24,454 bases of DNA from Patescibacteria group bacterium (lineage in GTDB: Bacteria; Patescibacteriota; Minisyncoccia; UBA6257; UBA9933): positions 1 through 24,454 of the forward strand of contig JBBUCW010000011.1 of NCBI GenBank assembly GCA_038057615.1, written 5' to 3'. Both the position numbers and the translations under genes were made by a program. Under the pieces are notes generated by a model. That model saw only the letters and a list, made by a program, of their open reading frames with translations. It did no database searches and was not told the DNA's origin. Below, in pieces: positions 9,306 to 17,555 of the stretch. The first letter of the stretch is position 1. Each line of letters begins with the position of its first letter.

Positions 9306-10924
9306 CTAAAATAACTCCAAAATTTTCCTTTGGCTTTTTCGTATCTGTCGCCCCAGCCTTTCATTTTTTGAAGTTTTTCTTCAAGATCCAGCATTATTTT
9401 AGCGGATATAAGAATTGATTCTATTGAATCGCCTTCTTCATTATTAGCTATTTTTCTTCCTATCTCACGATACATATCTCTATAACTGTCTGTTTTAAAT
9501 ATTCTCTTTTTTCTGATAATCTTGTGATTGTTCTCTGATTGGTATTTTATGGCGTCCGTTATCCTTATATTTTTCCCGTGAATTTTTAATTCCACAATAT
9601 CCCTTGGCCCAACCCGCAAACTACCTTTTTCGCTGAAAGTCGTGGTAAAAGTCGCTCCGTTTTCAAGCTCTATCCAAACCTCAACAGTATTATCTTGTAA
9701 TAATTTAATGTCAGAATTTATCGGCTTGCTGAAATTATTAAGATGCAAAAAATGATCAACTTGATGACAACCATTGGACAAAAAAGTGCTTCTGGAAACC
9801 GGCCAATTATACCAAAAAAATTCCGGTTGAAGCAATTCATAAACTATGGAATGGTATGAAATCGGCTCGCCGTATTTTACGCCAAGATCTTGTAGGGCGA
9901 ATTTATTAAATGTTCCATAACGCTTATGAAACCCGATGAATAATTTCCTTCCAACCTGCCTCAAAGTTTTTTCCAATTCGTTTAATTCGTCATAATCCAT
10001 AACAACGGGTTTTTCCACCACAACATAAGCCCCTTGATTCAAGGCGTGTAATGTTATAGGAACATGGGTATGGTTGTAGCTGGCAACAAAATAAACTTCG
10101 GCTTTCTCGTCCGCCGCGGGAAAAGGCGAAGAATCCCATTTTTGAATTCCTCTCTCAATAACTATTTGAGTTGGGTCAATTTCGTGAATTGATTTTATAT
10201 CAACAAACTTTTTTGTATACGGAATGATATTAATTTTCGCGTAATTGCCATAACCAAATAAAACTCCGCTTTTTTTGTTTTTCTTTATTTCTTCTACTTT
10301 ACCTTTTACTTCCGCGACGACATCAGCTCCGCTTGAGTCAATTTTTTGCGCTTCGCCCCAGTTATTATTTTTAATTTCTTTTTTTAATCCATCAACTAAT
10401 TTATTTTGAATCTCTTGAGTAATCTCTATCCCAGAATAGATACTCCATGCCTTAATGTCTTTCCACCATACATCCTGTATTTTATTTTTTCCGACAGGAA
10501 AATACAAAATCACGCCCTCCTCCATTTCTAAAATATCAAATTTATCAATTTTATAAATAAGCTCTTTAGGTAAAACAATTCTTTCCACAATGGCTGGATG
10601 AAAAGGCGCCATAAAATAAACCATCTCGCTCTCGGCAAAAATTTTATTATCAACGGTTTCAATAATTTTCCCAATGCCGCAAGAAATATATTTTTCATTG
10701 CGCCTATCTTCTCTAAGCCGAGACCAAATTTTTGTAAATAATCCATAAAATCCAACAACTGGGAAATAATTAATCAATAATCTTAAGCTCTTAGCCCTTA
10801 TATGATAAACATTTTCAAGCTTTTCAAGATTTTTCCATGCCAAAACTTGAATCCTGTATTCATTTTTATTTCGGCAATAATCCAAAAAACCGCCCCTCCA
10901 TTTCTTGCCGGTAAGTATTCTCAT
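9302..10924 (-). CDS. Bi-domain-type oxidoreductase: partial MDR-like N-terminus plus Gfo/Idh/MocA domain
   Basis: 'GVLFGYGNYAK' Rossmann motif, 'VVVEKP', 'GFHKRY', and 'NGCHQVD'. The N-terminal 'SRLREDRRNEKYISCGIGKIIE' resembles bi-domain oxidoreductase N-termini (inference). Confidence 0.7.
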   Translation of the reverse strand: MRILTGKKWRGGFLDYCRNKNEYRIQVLAWKNLEKLENVYHIRAKSLRLLINYFPVVGFYGLFTKIWSRLREDRRNEKYISCGIGKIIETVDNKIFAESEMVYFMAPFHPAIVERIVLPKELIYKIDKFDILEMEEGVILYFPVGKNKIQDVWWKDIKAWSIYSGIEITQEIQNKLVDGLKKEIKNNNWGEAQKIDSSGADVVAEVKGKVEEIKKNKKSGVLFGYGNYAKINIIPYTKKFVDIKSIHEIDPTQIVIERGIQKWDSSPFPAADEKAEVYFVASYNHTHVPITLHALNQGAYVVVEKPVVMDYDELNELEKTLRQVGRKLFIGFHKRYGTFNKFALQDLGVKYGEPISYHSIVYELLQPEFFWYNWPVSRSTFLSNGCHQVDHFLHLNNFSKPINSDIKLLQDNTVEVWIELENGATFTTTFSEKGSLRVGPRDIVELKIHGKNIRITDAIKYQSENNHKIIRKKRIFKTDSYRDMYREIGRKIANNEEGDSIESILISAKIMLDLEEKLQKMKGWGDRYEKAKGKFWSYFR

Positions 10925-10967
10925 GATGTCCTACATCTTAATTTATTTAAGATTGTTTTTCAATAAC

Positions 10968-11747
10968 TTACTTTTTTTCATAAATTTTCGCGTCAATCAA
11001 AAACCGATACCAAAAAGCGTGCAAAAAATGAAATATCAAACCTTCTTTACCGTCTAAAAAGCCCAACCGTAAAAAATAACGATAACAAAAATACGCGTAA
11101 ACGCGGAAAAACATCGGCAGTTTGTAATAAAATTTCTTTTTACTGATTCCAAAATCGCCGACTAAAATCGCCGCCACTTCCCGCGACGCGTAATTATTGT
11201 GCTTTTCAGTCCACCAAGTTAAATCTTTTTTATTATCATCAACAAAATCATTTTCTAATTTTCCGGATTTCCCTTCCAATAAAACGAGATGTTCATCCAT
11301 TTCTCTTTGTTCCGAACGGGCTTTTCCTTTTCTAAATAATCTTAAAAACCAAAACGGATAATAACCGCCGTGTTTTATCCACCGGCCCATAAAATAAACG
11401 CGACGTTTAATGTAAAATCCTGAAATTTCTAATGCGGTTTTTGGTATAACTTCAATAATTTCTTTTTTTAATTCTTCAGTCAAATATTCATCCGCGTCCA
11501 ATCTTAAAATCCACTCGTTTTTTATTTTCAGATTATCCAAAGCCCAGTTAAATTGCCGAGCCTGATTTTCAAATTTATGCTGAAAAATTTTAGCGTCATA
11601 TTTTTTTGCGATTTCCAAAGTTTTATCAGTGGAATAAGAATCAACGATAAAAATTTCATCCGCCCAATCACTGATATTCTTCAACAGCAGTTCAATGTGA
11701 ATTTCTTCGTTGTAGGTTAAAATTATGATTGAAATGGGAATTCTCAT
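10968..11747 (-). CDS. Glycosyltransferase family 2
   Basis: 'ISIIILTYNEE', 'IVDSYSTDKT', DxD in 'LRLDADE', 'LRLFRKG', and 'GFLDGKEG'. Confidence 0.95.
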   Translation of the reverse strand: MRIPISIIILTYNEEIHIELLLKNISDWADEIFIVDSYSTDKTLEIAKKYDAKIFQHKFENQARQFNWALDNLKIKNEWILRLDADEYLTEELKKEIIEVIPKTALEISGFYIKRRVYFMGRWIKHGGYYPFWFLRLFRKGKARSEQREMDEHLVLLEGKSGKLENDFVDDNKKDLTWWTEKHNNYASREVAAILVGDFGISKKKFYYKLPMFFRVYAYFCYRYFLRLGFLDGKEGLIFHFLHAFWYRFLIDAKIYEKK

Positions 11748-12796
11748 ATAAAATAATTTTCAACGGCAAATTTATATTGCTGAATAAATAATTCTTTAAA
11801 AAATCTAACATTATTTTGTTCGTAAAAAAGTATGATCGCTTTTTTGTAATCCGCCTCGTCAATGCTTCTGTATGAAAGCGGACAAACATTATGCGCCAAA
11901 AAAATAGCGTCCCCGATAAGCCGCGCCGTTCTTTTATTCCCGTCTTCAAACGGCTGAATATAAGATATCAATAATACCGCGGCCAGCGCTTTGAAAAAAG
12001 GATTTTTCTCTTTATTAATCAAATTCGCCATATTTTCCATCGCCTCGCGCAATTGATATTCATTATCTAACGGCCTGTATTTTGTCCCGACAACGCCAAC
12101 CGCTTTTTTTCTTATGCCATAAAAAACATTCAATCCTTCAACCAATAATCTATGAATGTCGTTAATTTTTCTAATCGTCATTTTTTTAAAATCTTTTTTA
12201 TTGGCAAAAATATAATCCAGCGCTTTTTTATGATTTAAAATCATTATTGCTTCTTCTTTTTTGTGACCTTTCGCTTCTTTGTTTTCTTTAATAAGAATTT
12301 CCGTGTCTATAAGCGAATATGTGTTGCCTTCTATTTGTGAAGATTTCCAACTTAATTCAATTGTCAGCCGCTCAAACTCTTTCTTTAAAATCGCCGGCGG
12401 AATTTTTTTAATATTAACTCCATATTTTTTATTTAATCTTTCTAAATCAATTAATTCACTTTTGCTGAAAATATTTCTAAAATTATTAAAAATATCAAAA
12501 TTAAATCTTTCAAATATGCCTTTTCGTTCATCCGGACCTTTTTGAAAATATTCATCAACATCAATATATTGAAGTAATTTATTTTCAACTGATTCCTGAT
12601 AAAAAATTCCGCGGCCTTTGCCGATTTTTTTAATCAATTTTTTCCGCTTCAAAACATTAATATCTCTGACGATGGTAACTCTGGAAATTTCGCCGAATAA
12701 CTCTTCTAAATGCTTTTTAATTTCTTTATTGCCGGCTTTTCCGCTTTTTCTGATAAATTCAAGAATTTTTAATTGCCGACTGGTTAATTTATCCAT
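11744..12796 (-). CDS. Fic family protein with N-terminal winged HTH
   Basis: N-terminal 'RQLKILEFIRK...SRVTIVRDINVLKRKKLI...GKGRGIFY', inhibitory-type motif 'SSQIEGN', and Fic motif 'IQPFEDGNKRTAR'. Confidence 0.92.
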   Translation of the reverse strand: MDKLTSRQLKILEFIRKSGKAGNKEIKKHLEELFGEISRVTIVRDINVLKRKKLIKKIGKGRGIFYQESVENKLLQYIDVDEYFQKGPDERKGIFERFNFDIFNNFRNIFSKSELIDLERLNKKYGVNIKKIPPAILKKEFERLTIELSWKSSQIEGNTYSLIDTEILIKENKEAKGHKKEEAIMILNHKKALDYIFANKKDFKKMTIRKINDIHRLLVEGLNVFYGIRKKAVGVVGTKYRPLDNEYQLREAMENMANLINKEKNPFFKALAAVLLISYIQPFEDGNKRTARLIGDAIFLAHNVCPLSYRSIDEADYKKAIILFYEQNNVRFFKELFIQQYKFAVENYFI

Positions 12797-12804
12797 CTTT
12801 TAAG

Positions 12805-12837
12805 ATTGTATCATTATTTACCGTTAATTGTATCATT
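12805..12837 (-). promoter_or_regulatory. Tandem 11-bp direct repeats (AATGATACAAT) with 22-bp period upstream of the Fic gene; candidate operator/promoter
   Basis: ATTGTATCATT at 12805-12815 and 12827-12837. The proximal copy ends in TACAAT (-10-like), 8 nt before the ATG. Confidence 0.55.
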
Positions 12838-12955
12838 TTGAAACGATAAAAGCAACGTTTTCCTCGCTAACTAAATCACCAATGTTTTTCAACAGCCGTT
12901 CAATGTGAATTTCTTCGTTGTAGGTAAGAATTATGATACTAAGAGGAATTTTCAT
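12833..12955 (-). pseudogene. Truncated 5' copy of the GT2 gene (40 aa, not in the ORF track)
   Basis: Translates as MKIPLSIIILTYNEEIHIERLLKNIGDLVSEENVAFIVSK*, versus MRIPISIIILTYNEEIHIELLLKNISDWADEIFIVDS in the intact GT2. Confidence 0.9.
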
Positions 12956-12978
12956 TTTAATACCTAATTTTTCAATTT

Positions 12979-12993
12979 AAAGCGGTCCGCTTT
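12979..12993. other. GC-rich palindrome AAAGCGG-T-CCGCTTT downstream of the LamG/SLT gene (possible terminator or binding site)
   Basis: Perfect 7-bp arms around a single central base. Confidence 0.35.
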
Positions 12994-13005
12994 TGCCTCC
13001 ATAAT

Positions 13006-15759
13006 TTATCTCAACGAAATAATAGCCGTGTAAAACTTGCCGTCGTTGAGAACGACTCTGAACTGCCAACTTCCGACAGATAAATTATCAGTGGCCAAAT
13101 TATAAACATATTGATTATTTTCCGAATCGTATCGGAACGTATTTCCCGCATCCGCCGCTGATGTTGAAAAAGCTATTTCATCCGTACCAACAACGCCATC
13201 AGAAATTTTAGCCAAATAAAGATAAGCTGTAGCCGTTGATATATAATTGTTATTGATATCGGTTAATTGAAACTTAATCGGCAAAGTTATCCTTAATTTA
13301 TAAATACCGGAACCATCGGCTTTAATCGGAGACAAAAAACCGCCAAATCTGTAAGCGGTATTAAAATAAATAATTTTGGTTGAAATATTCCCATCATAAT
13401 CTACGGCGGTAATTTTAAGAACATTTAAGCCGAGTTTGGTTAAAACAACAATTTGCCCGTTATTCACTACAACATCATTTAATAACGCTTCCACGCCGGC
13501 TATGCCGGAAATTTTATCCGTCGCGCTAAATTGAATTTGTAATTGAGAATTAAGCAAATATTCACCCGCGATCGGCGATACGTTTATCTGCGGCGGCTCA
13601 ATATCGTGCAATTCCGCATCGGAATCAATTGTTTGGTCTATTACGCCGTCTCCTTCGTAATCTATGTTTAATTTTACGCCCCTTTCGCCCCTGTTAAGCG
13701 CGTCCCAATCAATCCGGTATTGATGAATTTCTCCTTCCGTAATGGGTAAATTAATGGCGCTGAATCCGGAAAAAATTCCGTGTTGCGCATTAACAATATC
13801 CAAACCGTATTTCCCGCTGGCGGTTCCAATAATACTATAAACATAAGAATCGTTTTGGAAAAATATCACCGCTCCTTTCACATTTGCGTCATAAACGGAA
13901 AAAGGAATTTCTTCTTTTACGAGATTATCAAAAACGCCTGTTTTTCGTCCTTGAGAATCAGTGATTTGCAATTCTCCTGGGCTGTTTAATTTCACAAGGA
14001 TTTTATTATTATTCACTGTTTTCAACTTACGGCTTAATGTTTCTATGGCGATTTTATTGGCGTCATTGATAATTCCGACAAAATAATTATTTAAATAACT
14101 TAATCTAATAGCCACACCACCTAAATAATCGCCGTATAAACCTTTTTCATTTTTAACAATGCCGTTATAACCCCACACTATAAGCGATGTTTTAATGTCA
14201 GCACAAGTTAAATTAACACCGTCTATTGTTAACGGACAAGAAGTAATAATTCGCGGATTAGCCATCAATCTTAATGCTTGGTCGTATTTATTTTGTAAAA
14301 CTCTGAATCCGTCTTTTATGTTCGCGTATATTCCCTGCAAAGCGTTAGAATAATATTTACTGAATCTGCCAACCCATTCTTCTCCTTTACAATCATCGCG
14401 TTTGGAATTTATATCTAATCCGCTTCCCAATCCTTTGGAATTCGGCGACGTGATTTGCATAATTCCAATTCCGCCGTCAAAAGCGCCGGCGCAAATTTCA
14501 TTGTTAAATTCAGGCCCGGATTCTTCGGCTCCAACGGCTAAAATAAGCTCTTTTGGAAATTCCGAATCTATGATAAATTTTTGAAAATTATTCTTATTAT
14601 CCCTGCCTCCGCCTCCATCATAAAGAGAATTTTCAGAATTATTTTTTGCGTAATAATTATTTACCGCGTCCAAAATAACTGGTTTTCTTTTATCAGCCGT
14701 ATCTAATTGCGTTTCCGCTTTATTTTGTAAATCGCTTTGATTATTCGGATTGTAATCTAAATATATTGTTCCGTTTGTTAAATTTTTTGCCGCCATCCAA
14801 CCAATAACTCCGTCAATTTTGTCTTCAACTTGATACCAACGATAACCGTCTATATCTATATTATTGCCGTTATCGTCAATGATTTTTATAACTTTGAGCG
14901 CCCAACCATTGGGAAGAGTTTTTAATAAAATACCGGAAACGCCGGCGCTTTGACGAAAATTCAATCTGGCAGATTGAATTTCAGACCAAAATTGCGTTGG
15001 CTGATTTGCCAAAGCATAATTTAAAGCTATTTCTTCGGCCGAACGAGCGATATTGGAAATACGAATTTCGTCGATTAATCCCCGCATTCTTTGAGAGCTT
15101 TGATAACCTCCTCCAAAAAGATGATGATTGATATATAAAGAATGTGTATCGGTAAATGTTAAATTAGGATGATAATTCGTTGATTCTAAAACACCATTAA
15201 CATAAATCTTAGAATAAACGCCGTCATAAGTAGAAACTACGTAATACCATTGATTTGGTTCATGCCAAATTCCGCTAAAACTTACTTGATTAAAACTACT
15301 TGCGCCAGCGCAAGAACCATCTTGGTTGCGTGCGATTCGTAAATTATACCCGTTGATATAGCCATAATTACTATCCACTCCCTTAGAAATTATATCCTCG
15401 GCATTTGCCCAACAACTTAAATCAAACCCCGTTGGATAAACCCATGCCTCAATAGTTAATTGAGAAAAATTTCTTAAAGAAGGATTGTCTGGCACGATAA
15501 TATAATCTGTTTGGCCGTTAAAATATCTAGCTTTACCGAATTTGCCGTCAATAATAGCTGTGCCGATAGCAGTGCCATTATTTATTCCAGTTTCATCAAT
15601 TATTGTATTGCCGGAAACATCATTGAATCTCCACAAAGCAACTGTGTTAGTATCGACGCTAAATAAATTTTGAGGAATTGCAACTTGAGCGTTAACAAAA
15701 TTAAAATAAACAGAATTTAATAATAAAATAACAAAAACAAATACTGATTTTTTAAACAT
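13006..15759 (-). CDS. Exported multidomain protein: signal peptide, LamG-like lectin, SH3b-like, lytic transglycosylase (SLT)-like, Ig-like, PxKF domain
   Basis: Signal 'MFKKSVFVFVILLLNSVYFNFVNAQ'. LamG aa ~38-250 ('ALWRFND', 'TIEAWVYP', 'WYYVVSTYDG', 'YVNG', 'GLIDEIRISN'). SH3b aa ~258-326 ('LNFRQSAG', 'DGYRWYQV', 'GWMAA'). SLT aa ~400-560 ('LAVGAEES', 'GIMQI', 'GYNG'). C-terminal 'FGGFLSPI...LPIKFQLTD'. Confidence 0.8.
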   Translation of the reverse strand: MFKKSVFVFVILLLNSVYFNFVNAQVAIPQNLFSVDTNTVALWRFNDVSGNTIIDETGINNGTAIGTAIIDGKFGKARYFNGQTDYIIVPDNPSLRNFSQLTIEAWVYPTGFDLSCWANAEDIISKGVDSNYGYINGYNLRIARNQDGSCAGASSFNQVSFSGIWHEPNQWYYVVSTYDGVYSKIYVNGVLESTNYHPNLTFTDTHSLYINHHLFGGGYQSSQRMRGLIDEIRISNIARSAEEIALNYALANQPTQFWSEIQSARLNFRQSAGVSGILLKTLPNGWALKVIKIIDDNGNNIDIDGYRWYQVEDKIDGVIGWMAAKNLTNGTIYLDYNPNNQSDLQNKAETQLDTADKRKPVILDAVNNYYAKNNSENSLYDGGGGRDNKNNFQKFIIDSEFPKELILAVGAEESGPEFNNEICAGAFDGGIGIMQITSPNSKGLGSGLDINSKRDDCKGEEWVGRFSKYYSNALQGIYANIKDGFRVLQNKYDQALRLMANPRIITSCPLTIDGVNLTCADIKTSLIVWGYNGIVKNEKGLYGDYLGGVAIRLSYLNNYFVGIINDANKIAIETLSRKLKTVNNNKILVKLNSPGELQITDSQGRKTGVFDNLVKEEIPFSVYDANVKGAVIFFQNDSYVYSIIGTASGKYGLDIVNAQHGIFSGFSAINLPITEGEIHQYRIDWDALNRGERGVKLNIDYEGDGVIDQTIDSDAELHDIEPPQINVSPIAGEYLLNSQLQIQFSATDKISGIAGVEALLNDVVVNNGQIVVLTKLGLNVLKITAVDYDGNISTKIIYFNTAYRFGGFLSPIKADGSGIYKLRITLPIKFQLTDINNNYISTATAYLYLAKISDGVVGTDEIAFSTSAADAGNTFRYDSENNQYVYNLATDNLSVGSWQFRVVLNDGKFYTAIISLR

Positions 15760-15791
15760 AATTTTTATATTTTTACTTATATTTCGGCTTT

Positions 15792-16442
15792 TTATAATTT
15801 TTTATTTTTAGCGCAAATTATTAAGTGAGCGCCTAATGACGGGAAAACATCTCCCAAAATCTCAAAAATTCTACCCAATTTATTTCTGCGAGTTGAAAAC
15901 AATAAATGAGAAGATATTGTTTCCAAAATTTCAAATCCTTTTTCTTTAATTAAATTTTCAGCAATCTTTTTATTATAAATATGATAATGATACGGGGCAA
16001 AAGCAAATAAAGGCATTTTACCGAAAAACATCAATAATCTATTGGCAACAAAAACTAAATTCGGCACTGTAATTATTAAAATTCCGCCTTGTTTTAGCGA
16101 ATTTTTTGCATTTTCCATGAATTTTAAATCATCAAACAAATGTTCAACTACTTCACCGGCAAATATCACGTCAAATTTTACTCCAAAATCCGGAATTCCA
16201 TCATTGAGATCCACTTGCTTTATATTTACGCCGTCAAGATGGCGCGGATTTACATCTACCCCAAAACAATTAACGCCTTCATTTTTTAATAAATCAACGA
16301 CTCCGCCCTTAGCAATGCCGCACTCTAAAATATTTAATCCTTCTATCTTTTCAAAATATCGCCGAATCAAACGAACGGCTTTTTTAATTCTTATCGGGTC
16401 CGGCACATCAAAATTTTCAAAAACTTGTTGTTTTATATCCAT
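15792..16442 (-). CDS. Class I SAM-dependent methyltransferase
   Basis: Motif I 'ILECGIAKG', 'GVDVN', 'FDVIFAGEVVEHL', and 'LKQGGILIITVPN'. Confidence 0.92.
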   Translation of the reverse strand: MDIKQQVFENFDVPDPIRIKKAVRLIRRYFEKIEGLNILECGIAKGGVVDLLKNEGVNCFGVDVNPRHLDGVNIKQVDLNDGIPDFGVKFDVIFAGEVVEHLFDDLKFMENAKNSLKQGGILIITVPNLVFVANRLLMFFGKMPLFAFAPYHYHIYNKKIAENLIKEKGFEILETISSHLLFSTRRNKLGRIFEILGDVFPSLGAHLIICAKNKKL

Positions 16443-16448
16443 ATAATA

Positions 16449-16454
16449 ATTATA
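16449..16454 (-). promoter_or_regulatory. Putative -10 box (TATAAT) 6 nt before the methyltransferase ATG (possible leaderless transcript)
   Basis: Minus strand reads TATAAT-TATTAT-ATG. Confidence 0.35.
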
Positions 16455-16575
16455 ATTTAATTTCTCTTTTTGTAAAATAGTATGATATAAATTTTTTTAA
16501 CTTAAGCCATTTAATCTCAAAATCGCTTAAATAATTATCTTGTCCTTCCCAATATTTTTCGTAAAATTTAGGCAT
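16450..16575 (-). pseudogene. 41-aa 5' relic, probably of another methyltransferase gene
   Basis: MPKFYEKYWEGQDNYLSDFEIKWLKLKKFISYYFTKREIKL*. Its ATG overlaps the stop of the GT4 relic (AATGCCTAA), like a genuine operon junction. The family assignment is from pattern recall only. Confidence 0.5.
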
Positions 16576-16768
16576 TTTTGATTATTTTATTATATTCCTT
16601 TGTCCATTTCTCCGCCACTTTATCGCAGGAAAATTCTTTTTCAACCAATTTACGGCCGTTTTCGCCCATTTTTTTCGCCAAATCCGGATTATTTAAAATC
16701 TTCAAAATGGCTTCGGTTAATTGTTTTTCGTCTTTTTCTATTACGATGCCGGCGCCGACCTTTTCAAT
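16568..16768 (-). pseudogene. 3' relic of a GT4 gene (66 codons, no start)
   Basis: IEKVGAGIVIEKDEKQLTEAILKILNNPDLAKKMGENGRKLVEKEFSCDKVAEKWTKEYNKIIKNA* aligns with the C-terminus of 17467-18654. There is an in-frame TAA immediately upstream. Confidence 0.9.
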
Positions 16769-17555
16769 TTAACTAATAATTTTTATTTCTTTTTTTAATT
16801 ATTTTAGTTATCCAATCATTAAATAAGTCGCAATTCTGAATAATACAATGTCCGCCAATTTTACCGAACATCACTTTCAAAACTGGTCTTATTACATTAT
16901 TTTTACCAAGTTTTTTATAACCTTCATTATAGTCGTTATTGGCAATTGTATAAACCTCATCAAAATTCAATTTCATTTTATCGCAAATTCTTTTAACCTC
17001 TTTTACAAAAATAATATTCCAACCATAATAAGTAGTGTCTAAAATTTTTAATAATTCTGTCGTTTCCGATTTTGCAAAACATTGAGTTTTTATACCAATA
17101 TCAGAAAAAATCTTTGCCGCTTCTTTCGCCTTTTTACCCCCAAAATATTTTATAAAAGTTTTAATACCTTTTTCCAAATTAGGATGAAGCCCGCGAATCG
17201 GACTATGCACGGCCGATGTTAAAATTTTATTTGTCATACCAACAGAAATAGTTGAATGAATAATCACTAATTTAGGCTGATATTTTTCAATATAATCCTT
17301 AGTAATTTTTATAAAATTTTTTGTATTTGGATAACAAATATGAACAATATCAAATTTTCCATCTAAATCATTGTTTTTATCGCGTAAAAAAATATTATAA
17401 TATGGCTTAAAAACATTAAATAAAGATCGACCAACTTCTCCGGCTCCAATAACTAAATGTTTTTTATTATTTTTCATAATTTTGTAATATTTTATTATAT
17501 TCCTCTATCCATTTCTCCGCCACTTTTTCGCTGGAAAATTCTTTTTCAACCAATT
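16584..17555. repeat. 67-bp near-identical direct repeats (16584-16650 and 17489-17555) bracketing the dehydrogenase gene
   Basis: 63/67 identical by manual alignment, offset 905 bp. Confidence 0.85.
16773..17477 (-). CDS. Short nucleotide-sugar dehydrogenase (UDP-Glc/GDP-Man dehydrogenase superfamily, WecC-like motif), lacking the C-terminal domain
   Basis: 'VIGAGEVG', 'HSTI', 'HSPIRG', 'TELLKILDTTYYGWNI', and catalytic 'IGGHCI' (Cys211). Only 234 aa. Confidence 0.8.
   Translation of the reverse strand: MKNNKKHLVIGAGEVGRSLFNVFKPYYNIFLRDKNNDLDGKFDIVHICYPNTKNFIKITKDYIEKYQPKLVIIHSTISVGMTNKILTSAVHSPIRGLHPNLEKGIKTFIKYFGGKKAKEAAKIFSDIGIKTQCFAKSETTELLKILDTTYYGWNIIFVKEVKRICDKMKLNFDEVYTIANNDYNEGYKKLGKNNVIRPVLKVMFGKIGGHCIIQNCDLFNDWITKIIKKRNKNY

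What the first reader, a model, noticed from the sequence alone, without database searches (positions are those of the whole stretch)
11690..12955. Fic gene sits in a 1208-bp unit bracketed by a duplicated GT2 5' end with a 28-bp identical core
Seen: on the minus strand the order is [GT2 codons 1-38, then stop] -> [HTH-Fic with its own repeat/promoter] -> [intact GT2, ATG overlapping the Fic stop]. The two GT2 starts differ at many synonymous positions but share an exact 28-bp core (11690-11717 = 12898-12925). No integrase or transposase is present. Established: phage and island integration and homology-facilitated illegitimate recombination in competent bacteria leave a regenerated target gene plus a gene fragment. 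Inference: a small donor segment carrying Fic plus a GT2 allele entered by single crossover at the core. Recombination between the cores could excise it again and leave a hybrid GT2 start.
Basis: partly seen in the sequence, partly recalled or inferred. Interest (0 to 1): 0.75.

Follow-up and report, generated by a model that had tools for sequence, protein, structure and literature searches.

The report
Fic cassette with duplicated GT2 start
A Fic-type gene (a candidate toxin or phage-defence gene) was inserted long ago into the start of a sugar-transferase gene in a groundwater Patescibacterium and duplicated that gene's first ~117 bases; this is a real but old insertion scar made without a recombinase, of a kind already described, and similar scars flank relatives of this Fic gene in other phyla.

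Summary
On the minus strand a 40-codon GT2 start fragment (12833-12955), an HTH-Fic gene (11744-12796) and an intact GT2 (10968-11747) lie in a row. They are bracketed by an 87-nt direct repeat (83% identical, exact 28-nt core, spacing 1208). At least eight independent assemblies reproduce the arrangement.

- The insertion is real. Other genera have dehydrogenase->GT2 with a single GT2 start and no Fic.
- It is old. The same fragment|Fic junction occurs in the same-genus genome G001 (about 75% nt identity) and in a third lineage (L249), each with its own deletions in the fragment.
- The 28-nt core is not the entry junction. It is the best-conserved block of all GT2 orthologs.
- A later 2.1-kb tract, 99.3% identical to genome G031 of another genus, does end at the core edge. 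In G031 the same slot holds an HTH-nucleotidyltransferase/HEPN pair instead of Fic.
- No excision product was seen.

Across 143 Fic loci from many phyla, 8 have long flanking direct repeats (40-125 nt), against 0 of 195 control genes. The structure matches "insertion with long target duplication", known for restriction-modification genes. It is a new member of a known kind.

The parts
12833..12955 (-). GT2 5' fragment: a 40-codon ORF, GT2-like through about codon 38 (to ~12842), then SK-stop. A decaying relic.
   Evidence: E = 3.4e-9 to GT2 aa 1-36; homologous fragments with different internal deletions in G001, G031 and L249
12874..12960 (.). Upstream copy of the 87-nt direct repeat (includes core 12898-12925)
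   Evidence: (family D1)
11666..11752 (.). Downstream copy of the 87-nt direct repeat (includes core 11690-11717), at the start of the intact GT2
12805..12848 (-). Two 22-nt tandem units, each with an AATGATACAAT box (like an extended -10), directly after the fragment and 8 nt before the Fic ATG. Candidate Fic promoter/operator.
   Evidence: D9, 77%; conserved in G001 and L249. Function is inferred.
11744..12796 (-). HTH-Fic gene (350 aa). N-terminal winged helix, Fic fold, motif QPFEDGNKRTAR (Gln in place of the catalytic His), SxxxEG inhibitory-helix-like motif.
   Evidence: PADLOC SoFic 4e-20, PDC-S04 6e-18
10968..11747 (-). Intact family-2 glycosyltransferase (259 aa). Its ATG overlaps the Fic stop (ATGA).
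   Evidence: orthologs 65-83% aa in 25 of 36 sampled genomes of the family
12900..15054 (.). Recombination tract 99.3% identical (15 differences in 2155 nt; 12900-13593 identical) to genome G031 of another genus. It covers the 3' two-thirds of the LamG gene, the spacer and the first 56 nt of the fragment including the core.
   Evidence: the rest of the locus is 62-85% identical to relatives; both allele types co-occur in runs X8 and X9
13006..15759 (-). 917-aa secreted LamG/SH3 protein upstream of the fragment. Context; it carries the recombination tract.
16443..16772 (-). A second pair of relics in the same locus: a 66-codon GT4 3' end followed by a 41-codon methyltransferase 5' end.

Best explanation
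A ~1.1-kb single-gene cassette (promoter/operator boxes plus HTH-Fic) was inserted once, without any element-encoded recombinase, into about codon 39-42 of a GT2 gene in a surface-glycan cluster. The event predates the split of the lineages G000, G001 and L249.

The insertion left the first ~117 nt of GT2 on both sides. The upstream copy stayed in the gene's old position and has been decaying as a pseudogene ever since. The downstream copy heads the working GT2, which is now fused to the Fic stop codon (ATGA) and is presumably co-transcribed with Fic.

Structurally this is an 'insertion with long target duplication'. The most likely route is uptake of DNA followed by homologous pairing on one side and illegitimate joining on the other. 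That route is inferred, not shown.

The exact 28-nt core is not the scar of entry. It is the best-conserved block of the gene. It has been kept or made identical by later recombination, because the relic still works as a short homology anchor: a 2.1-kb tract shared at 99.3% with another genus ends at its edge. In that genus the same slot carries a different candidate defence cassette (HTH-nucleotidyltransferase + HEPN).
For: Structure and significance.

Empty sites: in G006, G025 and G005 the dehydrogenase (window 16773-17477 homolog) is followed within 1-5 nt by a single GT2 start. In G001 the fragment occupies exactly that place, and the repeat begins at the ATG.

Single old event:
- The same fragment|Fic junction and the same AATGATACAAT boxes occur in G000, G001 and L249.
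- Fic is directly upstream of GT2 in a fourth lineage, L141.
- The unit is about 75% nt identical between G000 and G001.
- The fragments carry different deletions.

Same slot, other cargo: G031 has LamG -> fragment -> HTH-NTase + HEPN -> GT2. PADLOC assigns these to PDC-M05A/B, and Fic to SoFic/PDC-S04.

Relic as anchor: the 99.3% tract stops where the fragments of G000 and G031 cease to be alignable. Both organisms are in the same groundwater runs.

Generality:
- Flank-to-flank alignment score >=60 in 8 of 143 Fic loci against 0 of 195 neighbouring control ORFs (Fisher P = 0.0009).
- The repeats are 40-125 nt and some are perfect or nearly so: 53/53, 40/40, 69/70.
- They are present in only two copies in their genomes.
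- Several are ends of neighbouring genes, for example the first 12 codons of mutM in L073 and the 3' end of a SpoU-like gene in L028.

No recombinase in the window.

ComEC and DprA homologs are present in G000, G001 and G031.

The structural class and its criteria are described in PMC2853133.
Against: - No empty site exists at species or genus level. The empty alleles are from other genera, so an insertion is inferred from synteny and not from a clean polymorphism.
- The fragments are not closer to their own genome's GT2 than to foreign alleles.
- Another relic in the same locus (GT4 3' end) is clearly nearer to foreign alleles (80-82%) than to the resident gene (73%). The two GT2 copies may therefore never have been identical, which would mean a donor allele rather than self-duplication.
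- G005 carries two full GT2 paralogs, so a deletion between paralogs cannot be excluded for this locus alone.
- The enrichment of repeats rests on 8 loci. The controls are neighbouring, mostly core, genes and not other accessory genes.
- ComEC and DprA also occur in bacteria that are not naturally transformable (control lists).
- The mechanism of long target duplication is unknown even for the published cases.
Confidence: 0.6

Rival explanations
1. A small donor segment carrying Fic plus the 5' end of a foreign GT2 allele entered by a single crossover (Campbell-type, or homology-facilitated illegitimate recombination). The two GT2 starts were therefore different alleles from the outset. The crossover lay in the 28-nt core, and the unit can excise again by recombination between the cores.
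For: - The two copies differ at 15 of 87 positions, many of them synonymous.
- The fragments are not closer to the resident GT2 than to foreign alleles.
- The GT4 3' relic in the same locus is allelic: 80-82% to other genera, 73% to its own GT4.
- G000 and G001 carry reciprocal 5' relics of two methyltransferase types.
- HFIR leaves such relics (PMC3240628; PMC5361080, listed).
- The two G000 copies share states (CAC, GAA, CTG) that are rare in orthologs.
Against: - The defining junction is at ~12842 and not in the core. It is shared by three lineages at about 75-80% identity. The event is therefore ancient and present-day differences say little about the original copies.
- The core is the most conserved block in every ortholog.
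- The only crossover that can be placed at the core is the much later LamG tract.
- In other Fic loci the flanking repeats are perfect or near-perfect.
- No excised or empty form appears in contigs of 4 runs, nor among the 9 GT2 contigs and 12 Fic contigs.
Confidence: 0.25
2. No insertion took place. The ancestor had two GT2 paralogs (as G005 has) with Fic in front of the second. A deletion removed most of the first paralog and whatever lay between, leaving its first ~40 codons.
For: G005 has two full-length GT2 genes 5 kb apart in the same cluster. GT2 3' relics occur in G033 and G001, so deletions in this locus are common.
Against: - In G001 the fragment sits exactly where the single GT2 starts in three 'empty' genera.
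- No sampled genome has a full GT2 followed by Fic-GT2.
- This model cannot explain near-perfect repeats of the ends of single-copy genes around Fic in unrelated genomes.
Confidence: 0.08
3. Site-specific integration of a mobilisable cassette by a recombinase supplied in trans. The repeats would be attL and attR, and the 28-nt core would be the crossover site.
For: Direct repeats that regenerate a gene end are typical of integrase-mediated islands (general knowledge; also discussed in PMC2853133). Two different cargoes occupy nearly the same position in GT2.
Against: - There is no integrase in the window.
- Fic relatives sit at unrelated targets, with repeats of variable length (40-125 nt) and unrelated sequence.
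- By my own reading of the sequence, the core has no dyad symmetry.
- The family is rare in viral contigs (7 hits).
Confidence: 0.04
4. Artefact: a misassembled repeat, or chance similarity in AT-rich DNA.
For: The genome is a 75%-complete MAG in 34 contigs. Co-occurring strains exist.
Against: Independent ENA and Logan assemblies of at least 8 runs give the same order at 99.8-100%. The exact repeat (28 nt) is shorter than Logan's k = 31. The alignment score is 104 against 30 or less in shuffles. Homologous structures exist in G001 and L249.
Confidence: 0.01

Closest known systems
Insertion with long target duplication (ILTD) of restriction-modification genes (Furuta, Abe and Kobayashi 2010, PMC2853133, which credits its reference 37; I recall that reference as Nobusato et al. 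2000)
   Same: - A small gene unit with no mobility gene.
- Flanked by direct repeats longer than 30 bp and of variable length, both of which align to a single target copy in a genome without the insert.
- The targets are unrelated between cases.
- The published cases are mostly in naturally competent species.
- The cargo is a self-interested or defence gene.
   Different: - The cargo here is an HTH-Fic gene (and an NTase/HEPN pair in G031), not an RM system. The double-strand-break explanation offered for RM units therefore does not apply.
- The host is a Patescibacterium.
- The event is old, and the empty sites come from other genera.
- The duplication regenerates the 5' end of a working gene.
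Homology-facilitated illegitimate recombination (HFIR) during natural transformation (summarised in PMC3240628; invoked for displacement of T6SS effector/immunity modules in Vibrio cholerae, PMC5361080)
   Same: - It needs no recombinase.
- A conserved gene end acts as the single homology anchor.
- It leaves relics of the displaced allele at cassette borders, as seen here for the GT4 3' end and the methyltransferase 5' ends.
   Different: From memory, HFIR usually replaces or deletes recipient DNA rather than duplicating it. No donor arrangement (Fic-GT2 without a fragment) has been found. Transformation has not been shown for this organism.
Integrase-mediated genomic islands and prophages that regenerate the end of their target gene (attL/attR)
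   Same: A regenerated target gene plus a duplicated gene end as direct repeats.
   Different: There is no integrase, no fixed target, variable repeat length, and a 1.1-kb single-gene cargo.
SoFic single-gene anti-phage defence / class II Fic AMP-transferases (PMC12249575; FICD structures)
   Same: The Fic fold. The best PADLOC model is SoFic (4e-20) and the best solved relatives are FICD (about 1e-12). An SxxxEG motif lies upstream of the core.
   Different: The catalytic His of HxFx(D/E)GNGRxxR is Gln, and GNG is GNK, in all 20 aligned members. The winged helix is N-terminal. NCBIfam SoFic and NmFic scores are far below their cut-offs.

Membership tests
Insertion with long target duplication (criteria of PMC2853133) | Direct repeats longer than 30 bp flank the insert | tested here: met
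   87 nt ungapped at 83%. Homology at protein level covers about 117 nt.
Insertion with long target duplication (criteria of PMC2853133) | Both repeat copies align to one target copy in a genome without the insert | tested here: met
   G006 and G025 (dehydrogenase -> single GT2 start) align to the left flank plus the upstream copy, and to the downstream copy plus the right flank of G001. The empty genomes are from other genera, not the same species.
Insertion with long target duplication (criteria of PMC2853133) | Insert shorter than 20 kb with no mobility gene, and a repeat that is not dispersed in the genome | tested here: met
   The insert is about 1.1 kb and holds Fic only. There are two copies only in G000. 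No integrase or transposase is in the window.
Insertion with long target duplication (criteria of PMC2853133) | Cargo includes R and M genes | tested here: not met
   The cargo is HTH-Fic. It therefore shares the structural class but is not a member of the RM cases.
Homology-facilitated illegitimate recombination | One homologous and one illegitimate (microhomology) junction relative to an identified donor | not testable with these tools
   No donor arrangement was found, and the junction is too old to read any microhomology.
Homology-facilitated illegitimate recombination | Host able to take up DNA | tested here: inconclusive
   ComEC and DprA homologs are present in G000, G001 and G031. They are also present in control genomes that are not competent.
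Integrase-type integrative element | Tyrosine or serine recombinase in or beside the element; fixed att core | tested here: not met
   No such domain is in the window. Targets and repeat lengths differ among Fic loci.
IS / transposon / MITE | Terminal inverted repeats and a short target duplication | tested here: not met
   No inverted repeat lies at the unit ends. The duplication is about 90-117 nt.
Fic AMP-transferase (SoFic, FICD, NmFic) | Active-site motif HxFx(D/E)GNGRxxR | tested here: not met
   The motif is QPFEDGNKRTAR. Q, K and both R are invariant in 20 members.
Fic AMP-transferase (SoFic, FICD, NmFic) | Fic/Fido fold recognised by profile | tested here: met
   Pfam Fic 48.9 bits (cut-off 24). 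FICD about 1e-12. PADLOC SoFic 4e-20. The NCBIfam equivalogs are far below their cut-offs.

The most novel reading that the evidence does not exclude
Small single-gene or two-gene defence or toxin cassettes (HTH-Fic, NTase/HEPN) spread through Patescibacteria and other phyla by a general route that needs no recombinase and duplicates 40-125 nt of the target. The gene-end relics left behind then act as portable homology anchors. Different cassettes and neighbouring genes can be swapped at the same slot even between genera, which would amount to an integron-like hotspot made only of host recombination and relics.
Probability: 0.25. Interest if true: 0.7.

Novelty: new member of a known kind. Interest (0 to 1): 0.5.

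Why it matters
Patescibacteria have tiny genomes, few classical mobile elements and no cultured genetic systems. How they gain accessory genes is therefore poorly understood.

This locus shows, with empty sites and several independently decaying copies, that a defence-type gene entered a working glycan gene without destroying it, because the insertion duplicated the gene's start.

It also shows that the leftover 60-nt relic still mediates exchange: a 2.1-kb near-identical tract is shared with another genus living in the same groundwater.

Finding the same kind of scar around about 6% of relatives of this Fic gene in several phyla extends "insertion with long target duplication" beyond restriction-modification genes. 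The DNA-breakage explanation proposed for those genes then cannot be general.

For this window alone, the finding is an ordinary, old scar.

Tried and rejected
1. Search for an excised or empty form. Contigs of four runs laid on 9500-16500 show no joint between 11690 and 12898. All contigs carrying the exact GT2 or Fic keep the arrangement. Only Logan contigs were available, not raw reads, so rare events are not excluded.

2. Species-level empty sites for the near-perfect repeats elsewhere.
 - The relatives of the L073 genome are too distant (MutM 54-62% aa by tblastn, upstream gene not conserved).
 - The exact MutM is on one contig only.
 - For L111, strains without Fic (92-95% identical) carry one copy of the repeat but a different left-hand gene, so this is not a clean empty site.

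3. Which allele the fragments derive from. With 62 shared sites there is no resolution.

4. Whether G031's cargo shares the very same junction as Fic. G031's fragment keeps 9-12 nt that the Fic lineages lack. The following promoter-like sequences look vaguely alike (TCA-AAATGATACAAT against TCA-TAATTGAGTATAAT), but this is not robust in AT-rich DNA. I left it open whether these are two insertions 3-4 codons apart or a cargo replacement.

5. Phage carriage. There are only 7 distant hits in 2.9 million viral contigs.

6. Dyad symmetry of the core as a dif- or att-like site. I saw none by eye in the sequence.

7. One tool call failed on syntax ('of' needs a G handle) and was corrected.
Full report
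**What is there.**
The window is a whole 24.5-kb contig of a 395-kb, 75%-complete, ~33% GC genome in 34 contigs. Relatives are annotated as Patescibacteria. Most of the window is a surface-glycan cluster: sugar transferase, two flippases, epimerase, GT4 genes, GT2, ManC, polymerase-like gene and methyltransferases.

On the minus strand the order is:
- LamG/SH3 protein (13006-15759)
- 40-codon GT2 start fragment (12833-12955)
- two 22-nt tandem units with AATGATACAAT boxes (12805-12848)
- HTH-Fic (11744-12796)
- intact GT2 (10968-11747), whose ATG overlaps the Fic TGA

The two GT2 starts form an 87-nt direct repeat (83% identical, spacing 1208) with an exact 28-nt core. The flank-to-flank alignment scores 104 against 30 or less in shuffles.

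**It is not an assembly artefact.**
The exact Fic protein is on 12 contigs and the exact GT2 on 9. They come from ENA and Logan assemblies of several groundwater runs from two studies and are collinear with the window at 99.8-100%. The exact repeat is shorter than Logan's k-mer.

**It is an insertion, but an old one.**
- In three other genera (G006, G025, G005) the small dehydrogenase gene (homolog of 16773-17477) is followed within a few bases by a single GT2 start and there is no Fic.
- In the same-genus genome G001 the dehydrogenase is followed by a GT2 fragment, then Fic (78% aa), then GT2.
- A four-way alignment shows that the empty genomes match G001's left flank up to the ATG of the fragment, and match its downstream copy from the ATG onward. 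The duplication therefore starts at or within a few bases of the ATG.
- G000, G001 and a third lineage (L249, Fic 79% aa) share the same fragment|Fic junction (…ATYGTW | TCAAAATGATACAAT…). Each has its own internal deletion in the fragment: 24 nt in G001, and a larger one that removes the core in L249.
- A fourth lineage (L141) again has Fic directly before GT2.
- The whole unit is about 75% identical in nucleotides between G000 and G001.

One event therefore predates these lineages, and the upstream copy is a decaying relic.

**What the 28-nt core is.**
Across about 20 orthologs this block is the best-conserved part of the GT2 5' end. The closest orthologs have 2-4 mismatches in the core, against 9-11 in the 30-mers on either side. 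It is thus not a signature of the entry crossover.

Exact identity is nevertheless seen only between the two G000 copies. They share some states that are rare in orthologs (CAC, GAA, CTG), which suggests later homogenisation.

A later event can be placed here:
- From 12900 to about 15054 the window differs from G031 (another genus of the same family) at only 15 of 2155 positions, with 694 nt identical next to the fragment. The rest of the locus is 62-85% identical to relatives.
- The tract covers the LamG 3' part, the spacer and the first 56 nt of the fragment. It stops where the two genomes' fragments cease to be alignable.
- The right-hand crossover must therefore have used the fragment of about 60 nt as homology.
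- Both allele types are present in the same groundwater runs.
- The direction of transfer is unknown.

**Same slot, different cargo.**
In G031 the order is LamG -> fragment -> a 194-aa HTH-nucleotidyltransferase and a 160-aa HEPN-like protein -> GT2. PADLOC assigns this pair to candidate defence system PDC-M05 (6e-43 and 4e-19). It assigns Fic to SoFic (4e-20) and PDC-S04. G031's fragment retains 9-12 nt that the Fic lineages lack. This is therefore either a second insertion 3-4 codons away or a cargo replacement, and I could not decide between them.

**Is this a property of the Fic cassette?**
The family is highly conserved and scattered:
- More than 8000 homologs at E < 1e-20.
- 584 matching stretches in the species-representative genome collection, spanning Patescibacteria, Melainabacteria, Proteobacteria, Bacteroidota and Firmicutes.
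- Orthologs at 68-70% identity sit in unrelated contexts.
- It is rare in viral contigs.

I aligned the 400 nt upstream of each Fic gene against the 400 nt downstream, in 143 loci from genome and metagenome collections. I did the same for 195 neighbouring ORFs of similar size.

| Score | Fic loci | Control ORFs | Fisher P |
|---|---|---|---|
| >=60 | 8/143 | 0/195 | 0.0009 |
| >=60, without G001 | 7/142 | 0/195 | 0.002 |
| >=50 | 10/143 | 1/195 | 0.001 |

The repeats are 40-125 nt long, and the units measure 1124-1513 nt from repeat start to repeat start. Some repeats are perfect or nearly so (53/53 in L111, 40/40 in L210, 69/70 in L086). They occur only twice in their genomes.

Several are ends of neighbouring genes:
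- L073 duplicates the stop codon of the upstream gene plus the first 12 codons of mutM.
- L146 duplicates the 5' end of a divergent gene (the ORF is my own reading of that alignment).
- L028 duplicates the 3' end of a SpoU-like gene.
- L058 and L111 duplicate promoter-like DNA.

This is the structure that Kobayashi's group named "insertion with long target duplication". They described it for restriction-modification genes, mostly in naturally competent bacteria, and its mechanism is unknown (PMC2853133).

**Mechanism: what is shown and what is inferred.**

Shown:
- an insertion flanked by a long duplication of the target
- no recombinase gene
- one ancient event
- a relic that decays
- later homologous exchange that ends in the relic

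Inferred: the route. The same locus has other border relics that are allelic rather than self-copies.
- The 66-codon GT4 3' relic at 16568-16772 is 80-82% identical to GT4 of other genera but 73% to the resident GT4. It still has a 63/67 conserved block.
- G000 and G001 carry reciprocal 5' relics of two methyltransferase types.

These fit one-sided homologous plus illegitimate joining (HFIR; PMC3240628 and PMC5361080, listed). With a donor of the same species, that route would also give near-identical repeats. ComEC and DprA homologs are present, but this is weak evidence. I therefore file the unit under the structural class and leave open whether the copies arose by self-duplication or from a donor allele.

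**Function of the unit.**
The Fic protein has an N-terminal winged helix, an SxxxEG motif and a Fic core whose catalytic His is Gln (QPFEDGNKRTAR). This is invariant in 20 members from several phyla. The best solved relatives are FICD. Whether it AMPylates is doubtful. A toxin or defence role is suggested only by the PADLOC similarity and by its company (NTase/HEPN pairs lie beside Fic in L058 and L091).

The scan found no terminator-like site between Fic and GT2, and the ATGA overlap joins them. GT2 and the genes behind it are probably transcribed with Fic. This is an inference.

**Verdict.**
The finding is a new member of a known kind. Interest is moderate. The window's scar is ordinary and old. 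Three points are worth a proper census: the repeats recur around this Fic family, the same slot holds another cargo in another genus, and the relic serves as a recombination anchor between genera.

Noticed in passing
window 16443-16772 (minus strand): A second pair of border relics. A 66-codon GT4 3' end (63/67 identical to the resident GT4 over 16584-16650, otherwise 61%; closer to GT4 of other genera, 80-82%) is followed by a 41-codon 5' end of a methyltransferase of the type that is intact in G001. G001 in turn carries a 5' relic of the methyltransferase type that is intact here (L037 8643-8777).
   Followed up: partly
L039 5683-5757 (G033); L037 4806-4865 (G001): GT2 3'-end relics (aa ~235-259, 75-88% identical) lie downstream of the intact GT2 in two other genomes. 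Gene-end relics are thus common in this glycan cluster.
   Followed up: no
L249 1134-1298: In a third Fic-GT2 lineage a ~160-nt element with perfect 20-nt terminal inverted repeats and a 50-codon ORF (with a YVYLLQS motif reminiscent of GIY-YIG) sits exactly at the Fic-stop/GT2-start overlap. It is flanked by ATGA on both sides, like a MITE with a 4-nt target duplication.
   Followed up: no
window 11744-12796; alignment A4: The Fic motif reads QPFEDGNKRTAR. Gln replaces the catalytic His and Lys replaces the second Gly, invariantly in 20 family members from several phyla.
   Followed up: partly
L231 1729-1798 and 2871-2940; L232 562-633: In a Bacteroidaceae genome the 53-nt perfect repeat around Fic is a promoter-like sequence with an internal palindrome (GTAACATTTTTGTTAC). 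Related strains without Fic (92-95% identical) have one copy of it but a different gene on its left, so this site is variable on both counts.
   Followed up: partly
L058 3004-3856; L091 1842-2796; L038 6929-7958: HTH-nucleotidyltransferase + HEPN/HepT pairs lie directly upstream of Fic in two unrelated contigs, and they occupy the Fic slot in G031. These small cassettes tend to keep company.
   Followed up: no
window 12900-15054, runs X8 and X9: The G031-type allele of the LamG tract (depth 64 and 18) and the window's own type co-occur in the same groundwater runs. Logan contigs break exactly at 12900 and about 15054, where the two types diverge.
   Followed up: partly
window 13006-15759 vs L037 6905-8002: The LamG protein is 917 aa here and 925 aa in G031, but only 365 aa in G001. 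In G001 it lies downstream of GT2 instead of upstream, so the cluster order differs even within the genus.
   Followed up: no
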